IMG/VR virus record: IMGVR_UViG_3300042691_016420
Location: 24,669 to 88,668 of that record
DNA: 64,000 nt
Source: a virus
Reading direction: 5' to 3' (one strand)
Shown piece after piece: positions 49,004 to 55,723 of the stretch. Both the position numbers and the translations under genes were made by a program. The notes beneath the pieces were generated by a model. The model made no database searches and was not told where the DNA came from. It was given only the letters and a program-made list of their open reading frames with translations. Each line of letters starts with the position of its first letter. Positions within the stretch are counted from its first letter, which is position 1.

Positions 49004-49037
49004 AGGAATACAGGTAGTAATATCTGTATTCCTTTTT
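49004..49037 (+). terminator. Terminator-like hairpin abutting twister 1
   Basis: AGGAATACAGGTA-GTAA-TATCTGTATTCCT followed by TTTT. Confidence 0.6.
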
Positions 49038-49106
49038 GTTAATGCAGCCAGATATTTATATCTGAGAGTCCAAAGCCTCTAAAAGCCAAAATGCAGATGG
49101 ACAAAA
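49034..49106 (+). ncRNA. Twister self-cleaving ribozyme, type P1 (copy 1)
   Basis: P1 TTTTGT/ACAAAA; U^AA; P2 TGCA/TGCA; GC; P3 CAGATA/TATCTG; P4 AGAG/CTCT with loop TCCAAAGC; GA-TGG pseudoknot partner. Matches twister env22 element by element. Confidence 0.88.
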
Positions 49107-49211: not shown

Positions 49212-49350
49212 TTTGTTAATGCACCATAACTCACTTCCCAAGGGTGAGCAGTTGTAATAACACTTGTATAGGGTAATGCAGGTAAAGACTTAACCATAGG
49301 GGAATATACTTCGACTATATGGTTATTACAACTGAGTGCAGAGGGGCAAA
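49212..49350 (+). ncRNA. Twister self-cleaving ribozyme, type P1 with large P5 (copy 2)
   Basis: P1 TTTGT/GCAAA; U^AA; P2 TGCA/TGCA; CC pairs with GG of loop TCCCAAGG (compensatory to GC/GC in copy 1); P4 CTCAC/GTGAG; P5 CAGTTGTAA/TTACAACTG; GA-GGG. Confidence 0.8.
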
Positions 49351-54245: not shown

Positions 54246-54428
54246 ATGAGTTTAGACTATCTAGAAAAATTCATTAAAGAACAAAAAGAAAAATATCCTT
54301 CTCTTAAGAATGATATTATGGAATTATATTACCTATGTCTATCTGAGATAGATGAAGGTGGATCTGAGAGCAATGAGGTAGATCATTGTATAGCTAGTAT
54401 TGAGGAATTAATAGAGGATAATTCTTGA
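54246..54428 (+). CDS. Hypothetical acidic protein
   Basis: 60 aa, ...LCLSEIDEGGSE..E. Confidence 0.6.
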   Translation: MSLDYLEKFIKEQKEKYPSLKNDIMELYYLCLSEIDEGGSESNEVDHCIASIEELIEDNS

Positions 54429-54477
54429 TTCCCGACATATTTTAAGGTTTCCCGACAATAAATAGGGATTCCCGACA
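54429..54477 (+). repeat. Three TTCCCGACA direct repeats with exact 20-bp period
   Basis: Copies at 54429, 54449 and 54469 with dissimilar AT-rich spacers. Confidence 0.85.
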
Positions 54478-54533
54478 AAAACACTGCACAGAATTACGGC
54501 AATTATAAACTTTTGTAGTAGTTTTGTGCACAT

Positions 54534-54639
54534 AGTCAGGTGGCGGAATTGGTAGACGCTATCTAAAAGATTATATGAAAGGGTGATATAAGAATGAAAT
54601 GAATAAACCTATTTACAGGTTCGAATCCTGTCCTGACTA
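54534..54639 (+). ncRNA. tRNA-like element 1 (Leu-like D-arm, no valid anticodon arm)
   Basis: AGTCAGG/CCTGACT acceptor, TGGCGGAATTGGTAGACGC D-arm, ACAGG-TTCGAAT-CCTGT T-arm, and a ~55-nt A-rich middle. Confidence 0.7.
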
Positions 54640-54855
54640 CTATGAGTAAGAGGTACTCAGAGTCTTTAATCCAAGACTTAAACAATGGATAGGGTATTGG
54701 ACTGGACATCCTTAAACGCCAGTCTCTTGGGACTAAAGGATACCAACACAAATCCTCCCAGTAGTGTTGGCTGTTTTCAAGGGGGATGCCCCGCAGGTTT
54801 TTAAGAAATAGAAAACCGAATTAACTACTCACAAGTAATCTCATTGTGGGGAAAT

Positions 54856-54946
54856 AGTCAGGTGGTGTATATAAGTAACACCCTTCATTGTAAGGATAGT
54901 AATATCTGGAAGGAAGAAGTAAGTGCAATTCTTACCCTGACTACCA
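54856..54946 (+). ncRNA. tRNA-like element 2 (expanded anticodon loop, encoded CCA)
   Basis: AGTCAGG/CCTGACT-ACCA, GTGT/ACAC D-stem, CCTTC/GAAGG closing a 22-nt loop, GTAAG-TGCAATT-CTTAC T-arm. Confidence 0.6.
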
Positions 54947-55070
54947 GTGTTGTTCCCTTGAGAAAGGAATACTGAACAGAAACTATGTATGAAACTGATT
55001 ACAATAAAAGTAATGGCTTAGAAATAAGTTGGTAAAACAGTACAGACAACACAGAGGACTTCTTATCCTC
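54947..55070 (+). ncRNA. Putative structured RNA with kissing loops
   Basis: GTGTTGT/ACAACAC closing stem with internal hairpins. Loop TGAGAA is complementary to loop TTCTTA of the 3' GAGGA/TCCTC hairpin. Confidence 0.45.
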
Positions 55071-55071
55071 A

Positions 55072-55157
55072 ATTTATCGGTTTCATCTCTAAAGATAGTA
55101 TCTTTGGACCAACAACCTTATACTTGTGAAAACCGAGAGTTTAGTGGGTTGTTTATA
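55072..55157 (+). ncRNA. 86-nt pseudoknotted repeat, copy 1
   Basis: Near-identical to 55235-55320, with differences concentrated at compensatory stem positions. Confidence 0.65.
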
Positions 55158-55238
55158 GTCAAGTAATGCGTAATGTGAAAGGGGCCCATCACATCCTATA
55201 AGGTTGCATAGTCATGAGTTCGAATCTCATCTTGATTT
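55157..55238 (+). ncRNA. tRNA-like element 3 (acceptor plus T-arm, no D-arm)
   Basis: AGTCAAG/CTTGATT acceptor, ATGAG-TTCGAAT-CTCAT T-arm, branched middle (ATGC/GCAT, ATGTGA/TCACAT, CCT/AGG). Confidence 0.6.
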
Positions 55239-55320
55239 ATCGGTTTCATCTCTTAGAGTAGTCCTCTTAGACCAATAACCCTATGCTTGTGAAAACCGAG
55301 AGCTTAGTGGGTTATTTATA
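55235..55320 (+). ncRNA. 86-nt pseudoknotted repeat, copy 2
   Basis: Second copy of 55072-55157. Confidence 0.65.
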
Positions 55321-55336
55321 AACGTAAAATTAGAAT

Positions 55337-55723
55337 ATGAAGAAGTTAATATTTATCTTATTACTATTTATTAGTAATACTCTTTACTCTCAACAGTTTT
55401 ATGAAGCTAAAACTTTTTCTTTCTGTACAATTAAGAGAGGTGAGAGATGGACTGAGTGGACTGAAGTAGAACTTATCAAAGCTTCTATAGAGGTAGATAG
55501 TGCTGATGGTACTATAGTTTTATATACTAATAGAGTTGCAACTTATAGTATTTATAAAACTGATAAGTTTATAAATGATGGTGAAGTAGTCTATTGGTTT
55601 TTTTGTGAGGATGATTCTAAAGTCCTTTGTAATATCCAGTTAGTTCTAGATAGAAATGGATATAATAAGAATGAGATGGAAATTAGGTATGCAGATTTAA
55701 AATTAAGATATGAACTTAAATGA
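55337..55723 (+). CDS. Secreted/periplasmic hypothetical protein
   Basis: Signal peptide MKKLIFILLLFISNTLYS-Q (Bacteroidota-style Gln at +1). Preceded by CGTAAAA at 55323. Confidence 0.65.
   Translation: MKKLIFILLLFISNTLYSQQFYEAKTFSFCTIKRGERWTEWTEVELIKASIEVDSADGTIVLYTNRVATYSIYKTDKFINDGEVVYWFFCEDDSKVLCNIQLVLDRNGYNKNEMEIRYADLKLRYELK

What the first reader, a model, noticed from the sequence alone, without database searches (positions are those of the whole stretch)
55072..55320. Duplicated 86-nt pseudoknot RNA with internal covariation flanking tRNA-like element 3
Seen: TCGGTTTCA pairs with TGA(A)AACCGA, which lies inside the loop of a second stem. That stem reads AACAACCT/GGGTTGTT in copy 1 and AATAACCC/GGGTTATT in copy 2, with AC/GT vs GC/GC further in. 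An inserted hairpin also covaries (AAAGA/TCTTT vs AGAG/CTCT). Most differences between copies preserve pairing. I do not recognise it as a named class. Known: HDV-like theta ribozymes sit at phage tRNA 3' ends. Inference: the topology and position (copy 2 starts at the 3' end of a tRNA-like unit) make it a candidate new self-cleaving or nuclease-blocking RNA.
Basis: partly seen in the sequence, partly recalled or inferred. Interest (0 to 1): 0.75.

Follow-up and report, generated by a model that had tools for sequence, protein, structure and literature searches.

The report
Duplicated folded RNA beside phage tRNA mimic
An uncultured freshwater phage carries two diverged copies of an 86-base folded RNA of no known family on either side of a tRNA look-alike; the fold is real and the stretch occurs in RNA libraries, but nothing shows that it cuts itself, and its job is unknown.

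Summary
Two 86-nt copies (55072-55157, 55235-55320; 84% identical) flank tRNA-like unit 3. A related IMG/VR phage has a third copy. All 14 differences between the copies lie in three nested helices, and 12 of them keep pairing. Across the three copies, six pairs show compensatory double changes. The unpaired segments are invariant. The proposed 9-bp pseudoknot (UCGGUUUCA / UGAAAACCGA) is plausible: -10.4 kcal/mol, reached by about 1.5% of shuffles. It never varies, so it is untested. At full length it cannot coexist with the covariation-supported inner helix.

No Rfam family matches, even at E<=10. The features that define HDV-like/theta ribozymes are absent.

The element is one module of a roughly 800-nt protein-free RNA operon: promoter-like region, three tRNA mimics, and a widespread inter-tRNA RNA motif. 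Contigs from two freshwater metatranscriptome runs carry it exactly.

Most likely it is a stable small RNA whose ends are set by RNase P and RNase Z acting on the adjoining tRNA mimic. That step is inferred. A ribozyme or nuclease-blocking role is not excluded and has no support.

The family is rare: three copies in two phages. This scan has met tRNA-array spacer RNAs on other DNA, but not this family.

The parts
55072..55157 (+). 86-nt element, copy 1. Its last base is the first base of tRNA-like unit 3. Its first base follows the 3' hairpin of motif W.
   Evidence: Direct repeat D1; CM R1 112 bits; exact RNA-library contigs 54699-55136 and 54966-55277
55077..55085 (+). Copy 1, S1 5' strand UCGGUUUCA (cols 6-14), invariant. 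Candidate pseudoknot strand.
   Evidence: duplex -10.4 kcal/mol, 1.4-1.6% of shuffles reach it
55088..55108 (+). Copy 1, hairpin (cols 17-37), 9 bp with a 3-nt loop. This is the fastest-changing part.
   Evidence: Four pairs with compensatory changes
55111..55153 (+). Copy 1, P2 helix (cols 40-47 with 75-82). It encloses the inner helix (cols 51-54 with 66-69) and the invariant 11-nt loop GUGAAAACCGA (cols 55-65, which holds the S1 3' strand).
   Evidence: One compensatory pair in P2 (42/80) and one in the inner helix (51/69)
55157..55238 (+). tRNA-like unit 3: 7-bp acceptor stem AGTCAAG/CTTGATT, T arm ATGAG-TTCGAAT-CTCAT, no usable anticodon arm, discriminator T55238.
   Evidence: Read; fold; not called by ARAGORN at default settings; nearly invariant in L004, L024, L021 and L022
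55235..55320 (+). 86-nt element, copy 2. It overlaps the last 4 nt of unit 3 and ends 2 nt before the CGTAAAA motif (55323-55329) that precedes ORF 55337-55723.
   Evidence: 113 bits; RNA-library contigs 55107-55299 and 54966-55277
54947..55070 (+). Motif W, a widespread inter-tRNA structured RNA directly upstream of copy 1. Parts: P1 GTGTTGT/ACAACAC, invariant hairpin TTCCCTTGAGAAAGGAA, a variable arm, and a 3' hairpin whose loop complements TGAGAA.
   Evidence: no Rfam match
54856..54946 (+). tRNA-like unit 2. It resembles tRNA-Thr(UGU) with a 15-nt insert after position 38, an aberrant D loop and T loop, and an encoded CCA end.
   Evidence: ARAGORN with introns allowed; 98.9% identical in L004
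54534..54640 (+). tRNA-like unit 1: tRNA-Leu-type D arm and a standard T arm, with about 49 nt in place of the anticodon region.
   Evidence: Rfam tRNA 38.7 bits with a 49-nt insert; ARAGORN -i
54429..54526 (+). Putative control region: three TTCCCGACA boxes at 54429, 54449 and 54469 (period 20 nt), and a Bacteroidota-type -7 box TAGTTTTG at 54519-54526, 7 nt before unit 1.
   Evidence: Read; 97.5% identical in L004 and present in L024; relatives place a Trans_reg_C gene just upstream. Promoter function is inferred.

Best explanation
The 86-nt repeat is a non-coding, structured small-RNA module. It has a variable hairpin, then a helix (P2) that encloses a short inner helix capped by an invariant 11-nt loop. 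Its invariant 5' tail can pair with that loop.

It is cargo of a promoter-driven, protein-free RNA operon in an uncultured freshwater phage, which probably infects Bacteroidota. The operon is punctuated by tRNA mimics. The element lies flush against tRNA-like unit 3 on both sides, so the host's tRNA-processing enzymes would set its ends. RNase P, cutting 5' of A55157, would leave copy 1 with a 3' end only 3 nt past helix P2. RNase Z, cutting after discriminator T55238, would start copy 2 at A55239, one base before the tail strand.

The released RNA would be about 82 nt for copy 2. Copy 1 would stay as the 3' domain of a motif W plus copy 1 RNA. It most likely acts in trans through its invariant unpaired bases, as a docking surface for a protein or RNA partner. 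The duplication would raise its dose.

Shown: the repeat, the three helices, the conservation pattern, the modular context, and its presence in RNA libraries. Inferred: the strand, the promoter, RNase P/Z release, the pseudoknot, and any trans function.
For: - **Structure:** six compensatory pairs in three helices; 0 of 500 shuffles reach this. RNAalifold agrees independently.
- **Conservation pattern:** stems vary (16 of 42 columns) while unpaired bases do not (3 of 44, two of them at the 5' edge), p = 5.7e-4. Such a pattern is usual for RNAs whose loops make specific contacts.
- **Old copies:** the three copies are equidistant (72, 74 and 74 of 86 identical), so the duplicate has been maintained for some time.
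- **Not coding:** copy 2 has stop codons in all six frames.
- **Flush placement:** copy 1 and the L004 copy end 3 nt before the acceptor stem of unit 3. Copy 2 begins inside its last 4 nt.
- **Module boundaries:** these match those seen in relatives. An RNA contig diverges at 55072. L019/L020 share the sequence from 55321 onward without the RNA cluster. Blocks shared with L004 are the promoter region, unit 2, and element plus unit 3.
- **RNA libraries:** exact contigs of 438, 312 and 193 nt (the last with 3 differences) in two metatranscriptome runs from different studies cover 54699-55299.
[quoted passage not shown] A tRNA-like unit sets the 3' end of MALAT1 through RNase P (PMC8457004, abstract).
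Against: - No read-end data are available. Only assembled contigs could be laid, so no processed 5' or 3' end has been seen, and the contigs run through all junctions.
- RNA libraries can contain DNA. The lack of RNA cover on the flanking ORFs is only a weak hint.
- Units 2 and 3 have aberrant elbows or anticodon regions, so recognition by RNase P and RNase Z is assumed, not tested.
- Copy 1 has no tRNA-like unit on its 5' side, so it would stay fused to motif W.
- Only three copies in two phages are known, and no partner is identified.
- Three relatives with the same locus lack the element, so it is dispensable.
Confidence: 0.5

Rival explanations
1. It is a new self-cleaving ribozyme. It would cut at its own 5' edge (freeing the 3' end of unit 3 or of motif W) or at its 3' edge (freeing the 5' end of unit 3), taking the place of a tRNA-processing nuclease.
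For: - Variable, covarying stems around invariant junction and loop bases are the usual signature of small ribozymes.
- The candidate pseudoknot strand begins 2 nt after the discriminator of unit 3 in copy 2. Theta ribozymes likewise sit at phage tRNA 3' ends (PMC10879173).
- The same phage has a significant twister-P1 match at 49036-49104 (48.5 bits, E 1.7e-9, below the gathering score), so it appears to use small ribozymes.
Against: - No Rfam ribozyme family matches even at E<=10.
- HDV-like hallmarks are absent: no room for P3/L3, no conserved C in the J4/2 position, no G at +1.
- Two of the three copies do not follow a tRNA-like 3' end.
- RNA-library contigs span all three junctions uncut.
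- The pseudoknot has no covariation.
Confidence: 0.1
2. It is a 3'-end module. It would be a compact fold that ends an RNA and shields it from 3'-to-5' exonucleases, or helps termination. The model is the triple helix that sits in front of the tRNA-like mascRNA in MALAT1.
For: - Each copy sits at the 3' end of an RNA segment. Copy 1 and the L004 copy end 3 nt before the predicted RNase P site.
- Copy 2 is the last element of the operon, just before the next gene's CGTAAAA motif. RNA-library cover stops between 55300 and 55324 (weak hint).
- MALAT1 precedent: PMC8457004.
Against: - A mere protective stem should conserve pairing strength rather than 40-odd unpaired bases. Here the loops are invariant and the stems drift.
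- No terminator-like site is found on the + strand.
- Relatives end the operon at unit 3 without the element.
Confidence: 0.15
3. It is an anti-defence decoy. It would mimic a host RNA, for example the antitoxin of a type III toxin-antitoxin system or the leader RNA of an abortive-infection nuclease, and be delivered from a tRNA-punctuated operon.
For: - It is a duplicated small RNA with a possible pseudoknot in a phage early or middle region.
- Earlier notes of this scan describe tRNA-punctuated phage operons that carry copies of the abiF antitoxin RNA (e1-5380956, e1-6046377). These are leads only.
Against: - No abiF or other Rfam match.
- No homolog in genome contigs by an invariant-segment pattern: the 26 hits are about the number I estimated for chance, and all were rejected by the CM.
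- None in 151 Bacteroidota genomes by CM.
- The copies are not tandem, and no toxin-like gene lies next to them.
Confidence: 0.1
4. It matters only at the DNA level or not at all. On this view it is a leftover of unequal recombination around unit 3, or a pair of recombination or protein-binding sites, and the RNA has no function of its own.
For: - The A-B-A' layout with a 163-bp period is what unequal crossing-over gives.
- The 3' end of copy 2 coincides with a mosaic junction to an L019/L020-type ORF region.
Against: - Substitutions are paired across helices and avoid unpaired bases. DNA-level selection or neutrality does not predict this.
- The copies are as far from each other as from the L004 ortholog.
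- The stretch occurs in RNA libraries.
Confidence: 0.04

Closest known systems
Bacteriophage T4 small stable RNAs RNAC and RNAD (species 1 and 2) of the tRNA gene region
   Same: Both are small non-tRNA RNAs encoded among phage tRNA(-like) genes and presumably cut out with them. Their biological role is unknown (PMC3014915).
   Different: There is no sequence or CM relation. Here the neighbours are tRNA mimics rather than decoding tRNAs, the element is duplicated, and the host is probably a Bacteroidota member.
HDV-like theta ribozymes at phage tRNA 3' ends (PMC10879173)
   Same: Phage-encoded, pseudoknot-capable, and (copy 2 only) starting within 2 nt of a tRNA-like 3' end.
   Different: The topology differs: tail - hairpin - P2 5' - inner helix around the tail's partner - P2 3'. 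It lacks P3/L3, P1.1, a conserved catalytic C and G1. No HDV-type Rfam match was found. Two of the three copies are upstream, not downstream, of the tRNA-like unit.
MALAT1 ENE triple helix plus mascRNA (tRNA-like) 3'-end formation (PMC8457004)
   Same: A compact structured element lies immediately 5' of a tRNA-like unit, so RNase P cleavage would create a 3' end protected by structure.
   Different: That system is eukaryotic and nuclear. No U-rich/A-rich triple-helix motifs are present here. Copy 2 lies 3' of the tRNA-like unit.
Motif W and other uncatalogued inter-tRNA structured RNAs of freshwater phage tRNA arrays
   Same: Same genomic niche, flush between tRNA or tRNA-like genes. The fold is supported by covariation and the function is unknown.
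   Different: It is a different fold and sequence. Motif W has more than 110 distinct instances in IMG/VR. The 86-nt element has three copies, and the CM finds none in 1.08 Mb of arrays that contain motif W.

Membership tests
HDV-like / theta ribozyme | Match to an HDV-type covariance model (HDV_ribozyme, HDV-F-prausnitzii, drz families) | tested here: not met
   cmscan of 54400-55400 at E<=10 lists only tRNA and two chance hits
HDV-like / theta ribozyme | Nested double pseudoknot in the order P1-P2-P3/L3-P1'-P1.1-P4-J4/2-P2' | tested here: not met
   Only 8 nt (cols 48-55) separate the P2 5' strand from the S1 3' strand, so there is no room for P3 plus L3. The only hairpin lies between S1 5' and P2 5'.
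HDV-like / theta ribozyme | Conserved catalytic C in J4/2 and G at +1 next to the tRNA 3' end | tested here: not met
   Cols 66-74 read GAGUUUAGU in copy 1 and L004, with no C. C69 in copy 2 is half of a compensatory pair. The first bases after the discriminator are A and U. Features taken from PMC10879173.
Other catalogued small self-cleaving ribozymes (twister, twister-sister, hammerhead, pistol, hatchet, hairpin, hovlinc) | Match to the family's Rfam model | tested here: not met
   No such match at E<=10. The same search type does detect a twister-P1 elsewhere in the window, so the method works here.
Self-cleaving ribozyme (any class) | Site-specific self-scission | not testable with these tools
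   Only assembled contigs were available. They run through all junctions, which shows only that uncut molecules exist.
H-type pseudoknot RNA | Both stems supported by covariation and sterically compatible | tested here: inconclusive
   S1: nine pairs, none varies; energy -10.4 kcal/mol, reached by 1.4-1.6% of shuffles. S1 with P2 is feasible (connecting loops of 8 and 9 nt). Full S1 together with the covarying inner helix is not, because there is a 0-nt linker between A65 and G66.
tRNA-cluster small stable RNA (T4 RNAC/RNAD kind) | Encoded flush between tRNA(-like) genes in one transcription unit | tested here: met
   There is no ORF in the 908-nt region conserved across relatives, and the promoter-like region is shared with relatives.
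tRNA-cluster small stable RNA (T4 RNAC/RNAD kind) | Accumulates as a discrete RNA released by RNase P and 3' processing | not testable with these tools
   Contigs from RNA libraries show presence only.
Type III toxin-antitoxin RNA antitoxin (ToxI-like) | Tandem head-to-tail repeats directly upstream of an endoribonuclease toxin gene | tested here: not met
   The copies are 163 nt apart with a tRNA-like unit between them. The downstream 128-aa ORF has no Pfam family at E<=0.01. No Rfam antitoxin match.

The most novel reading that the evidence does not exclude
The 86-nt element founds a new class of catalytic or nuclease-controlling RNA coupled to tRNA-like ends. The invariant 5' tail and the 11-nt loop would form a pseudoknot that alternates with the inner helix. 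The RNA would either cleave itself at the tRNA-mimic boundary or gate RNase P/Z and exonuclease access there.
Probability: 0.1. Interest if true: 0.8.

Novelty: new variant of a known kind. Interest (0 to 1): 0.42.

Why it matters
Phage tRNA gene clusters have been known since T4 to encode extra small stable RNAs whose roles are still unknown (PMC3014915). This locus is a compact example. One promoter-like region drives only tRNA mimics and folded RNAs, and relatives swap these as modules.

The 86-nt element shows unusually clean evidence of selection on both its fold and its unpaired bases. That makes it a good candidate for biochemical work: partner capture, RNase P/Z processing and self-cleavage tests. 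If its invariant loops bind a host factor or a defence nuclease, this would show how phages use tRNA-processing signals to deliver small RNAs. If not, it remains one more rare, uncatalogued phage RNA motif.

Tried and rejected
**Homolog hunting**
- blastn of the 1-kb region and of 54856-55240 against 50,697 deposited phages found no match.
- IMG/VR pattern scans:
  - TCGGTTTCA N{15,40} TGAAAACCGAGAG found nothing because the gap was 1 nt too short.
  - TGTGAAAACCGAGAG gave 13 loci, of which only L004 is real.
  - TCGGTTTCA N{30,55} GAAAACCGA gave 26 loci. Only L004 is real; L097 is an unrelated 30-nt tandem hairpin repeat.
- The genome contigs pattern scan gave 26 loci, about the number I estimated for chance, and the CM rejected all of them.
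- CM R1 found no further copy in any of these:
  - the whole contigs of five related phages;
  - the loci carrying TTCCCGACA repeats;
  - 1.08 Mb of motif W arrays;
  - 151 Bacteroidota genomes (two hits at E about 0.08-0.09 per genome, which is chance).
- blastn of copy 1 against 401 Bacteroidota genomes gave only short chance matches.

**Neighbour-gene route**
- The 128-aa ORF gave 13 protein homologs.
- The single metagenome scan returned five loci, none with the element.

**RNA runs**
- Contigs only, so no molecule ends, strand or expression level can be read.
- The flanking ORFs (54300-54504 and 55325-55500) have no cover in the two RNA runs, while DNA run X1 covers both flanks and X4 the upstream one. 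I treat this as no more than a weak hint.

**Ideas rejected**
- Coding: copy 2 has stops in all six frames.
- Intrinsic terminator on the + strand: none found.
- tmRNA: ARAGORN finds none.
- A 10/10 complement between copy 1 (55113-55122) and unit 3 (55197-55206), and an 11-bp complement between the tail and the variable arm of motif W (54989-54999). Neither is conserved in L004.
- Host assignment from the DNA polymerase: only about 35% identity to phages of many different hosts.
- TAnnTTTG is not enriched overall in the window. A Bacteroidota host therefore rests on a few well-placed intergenic TATATTTG boxes.

Full report
**1. What is there**

The window is part of an 88.7-kb IMG/VR phage contig with about 33% G+C. 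A 908-nt stretch with no conserved ORF lies between a 60-aa ORF (54246-54428) and a 128-aa ORF (55337-55723). In order, it holds:
- three TTCCCGACA boxes spaced 20 nt apart (54429, 54449, 54469);
- a Bacteroidota-type -7 box, TAGTTTTG (54519-54526);
- tRNA-like unit 1 (54534-54640; Rfam tRNA 38.7 bits, with 49 nt in place of the anticodon region);
- a 215-nt spacer;
- tRNA-like unit 2 (54856-54946; ARAGORN with introns allowed reads it as tRNA-Thr(UGU) with a 15-nt insert; it ends in CCA);
- a 124-nt structured RNA that I call motif W (54947-55070);
- copy 1 of the 86-nt element (55072-55157);
- tRNA-like unit 3 (55157-55238);
- copy 2 (55235-55320);
- a CGTAAAA motif (55323-55329) ahead of the next gene.

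**2. The observation**

The two copies share 72 of 86 bases (BLAST E 6e-22). A related phage contig, L004 (IMGVR_UViG_3300032323_003043), has a single copy in the same place as copy 1, directly 5' of an almost identical unit 3. It has nothing 3' of unit 3. The three copies are equidistant (72, 74 and 74 identities). Copy 2 is therefore an old paralog or a recombinational import, not a fresh duplicate.

All 14 differences between copies 1 and 2 lie in three nested helices:
- ten form five compensatory pairs;
- two convert G.U pairs to Watson-Crick pairs;
- two break pairs.

With L004 added, six pairs have changes on both sides. Four are in the hairpin (cols 17-37), one in P2 (42/80) and one in the inner helix (51/69). 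No shuffle out of 500 reaches this, and shifted registers give at most one. RNAalifold finds the same helices unaided.

Variable columns are 16 of 42 in stems and 3 of 44 elsewhere (p = 5.7e-4). Two of those three sit at the 5' edge. Copy 2 has stop codons in all six frames. So this is an RNA under selection for its fold, and under even stronger selection on its unpaired bases.

**3. The pseudoknot**

UCGGUUUCA (cols 6-14) can pair with UGAAAACCGA (cols 56-65, one bulged A). The duplex energy is -10.4 kcal/mol, and 1.4-1.6% of shuffled tails or loops do as well. All nine pairs are invariant in the three copies, so covariation neither supports nor contradicts it.

Geometry adds a constraint. 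The partner strand fills the 11-nt loop that is closed by the inner helix, 51-54/66-69. A65 pairs at the far end of S1, while G66 must pair at the junction with no linker between them. Full S1 and the inner helix therefore exclude each other.

The inner helix has its own compensatory change (A-U to G-C in copy 2). Two readings fit: only part of S1 forms, about 5 bp, or the two pairings alternate. S1 together with P2 alone is feasible, with connecting loops of 8 and 9 nt.

**4. Known families**

Rfam 15 gives no match to the element at gathering thresholds or at E<=10 with permissive filters. L004's RNA cluster has no match either. The method does work in this window: it finds a twister-P1 fold at 49036-49104 (48.5 bits, E 1.7e-9, below the gathering score of 67.2).

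The features that define HDV-like/theta ribozymes are G1 at the tRNA 3' end, a catalytic C, and L4, J1/2 and J4/2 (PMC10879173). They are not met:
- there is no room for P3/L3;
- copy 1 and L004 have no C between the S1 3' and P2 3' strands;
- the bases after the discriminator are A and U;
- two of the three copies lie 5', not 3', of the tRNA-like unit.

**5. Relatives and rarity**

The locus is a mosaic of modules.
- L004 shares the control region (97.5%), unit 2 (98.9%) and element plus unit 3 (93.8%), but neither spacer.
- L024 has the control region followed directly by unit 3.
- L039 starts with unit 2.
- L021 and L022 have a real tRNA-Leu(UAA) followed by unit 3.
- L019 and L020 share the downstream ORF at 97% identity but lack the RNA cluster altogether.

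Unit 3 is almost invariant in all five phages that have it. The 86-nt element is present in two of them. Relatives place an OmpR-type winged-helix gene (Trans_reg_C, 76 bits) just before the TTCCCGACA boxes. I did not find that gene in the held 65% of this phage.

Exhaustive searches with patterns and with covariance model R1 found no further copy.

**6. Expression**

About 20 public runs hold the stretch or a part of it, and most are labelled freshwater. Two metatranscriptome runs from different studies carry the region. Exact contigs cover 54699-55136 (438 nt, depth 68) and 54966-55277 (312 nt). A third contig covers 55107-55299 (193 nt) with 3 differences.

These contigs bridge the copy 1/unit 3 and unit 3/copy 2 junctions, so uncut molecules exist. 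In both RNA runs the flanking ORFs are uncovered, while DNA run X1 covers both flanks and X4 the upstream one. Contigs cannot show ends, strand or level.

**7. Context found on the way**

It usually starts 3-4 nt after a tRNA 3' end and ends 2-6 nt before the next tRNA or tRNA mimic.

Its features:
- a 7-bp closing stem;
- a variable arm, which related sequences in the same samples replace with many unrelated 26-40-nt inserts;
- a covarying 3' hairpin (GAGG/CCTC, AAGG/CCTT, AGGGG/CCCTT);
- a loop UUCUCA in that hairpin, complementary to UGAGAA in the invariant hairpin.

It is not in Rfam. Earlier notes of this scan describe it and several other uncatalogued RNAs wedged between phage tRNA genes. 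In the usual layout motif W abuts the next tRNA(-like) gene. Here the 86-nt element is inserted between motif W and unit 3.

**8. How it most likely works**

The best-supported reading is that the element is a stable small-RNA module of a tRNA-punctuated RNA operon (confidence about 0.5).
- RNase P, cutting 5' of A55157, would leave copy 1 ending 3 nt after helix P2. Such a short tail is a poor substrate for 3' exonucleases.
- RNase Z, cutting after T55238, would start copy 2 at A55239.

The invariant tail, the 11-nt loop, the UAU/UUAGU internal loop and the UAGU hairpin loop would be the working surface, either for a partner or for tertiary folding. These processing and function steps are inferred from position and from established knowledge of tRNA maturation. 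They are not shown.

Rivals:
- a 3'-end protection or termination module (0.15);
- a new self-cleaving ribozyme (0.10);
- an anti-defence decoy (0.10);
- a DNA-level remnant (0.04).

**9. Verdict**

The RNA motif is uncatalogued but belongs to a known kind, small RNAs embedded in phage tRNA clusters. It is rare, and the ribozyme claim has no support so far.

Noticed in passing
54947-55070: Motif W is a widespread, uncatalogued inter-tRNA RNA. It has a closing stem GTGTTGT/ACAACAC, an invariant hairpin TTCCCTTGAGAAAGGAA, a hypervariable arm, and a covarying 3' hairpin whose loop UUCU(C/U)A complements UGAGAA. It comes in two 3' subtypes. No Rfam match. Here it starts directly after the CCA of unit 2.
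   Followed up: partly
54534-54640, 54856-54946, 55157-55238: Three tRNA mimics share the acceptor stem AGTCA(G/A)G. Unit 2 reads as tRNA-Thr(UGU) with a 15-nt hairpin inserted after position 38, and it lacks the GG / T-psi-C elbow bases. Unit 3 has no anticodon arm, yet it is almost invariant in five phages whose neighbouring protein is only 62% identical.
   Followed up: partly
54429-54477; L024:252-623 (-): Three TTCCCGACA boxes with a 20-nt period precede the RNA operon. In relatives (L004, L024, L021, L022) an OmpR-type winged-helix gene (Trans_reg_C, 76 bits) lies upstream of the RNA operon, and in L004 and L024 it precedes the boxes. This suggests a phage-encoded regulator of the RNA operon. 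The gene was not found in the held part of this contig.
   Followed up: partly
49036-49104: Significant match to the type-P1 twister ribozyme (48.5 bits, E 1.7e-9), below Rfam's gathering score of 67.2. It partly supports another first-stage note on tandem twisters. The proposed second copy (49212-49350) did not match at E<=10.
   Followed up: partly
55321-55340; L019, L020, L021, L022, L004, L024: CGTAAAA lies 7-10 nt before the ATG of the 128-aa signal-peptide ORF in every relative, whatever lies upstream (RNA operon or a glycosyltransferase-like gene). This fits the promoter-like CGTAWAA motif noted elsewhere in this genome. The 3' end of copy 2 coincides with this mosaic junction.
   Followed up: no
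54971-55045 (read laying joints): In the same samples, many more abundant related sequences replace the variable arm of motif W with unrelated 26-40-nt inserts. Depth on the conserved arms of motif W is about 285-326, against 12.6 for this phage. The motif therefore appears to be carried by many more abundant co-occurring sequences, presumably phages.
   Followed up: no
L186:993-1547; L157:1382-1443 (-): Motif W arrays in other IMG/VR phages also hold a phage tmRNA (93.7 bits) and the freshwater-1 RNA motif (86 bits) next to tRNAs. These arrays appear to be general depots of small RNAs.
   Followed up: no
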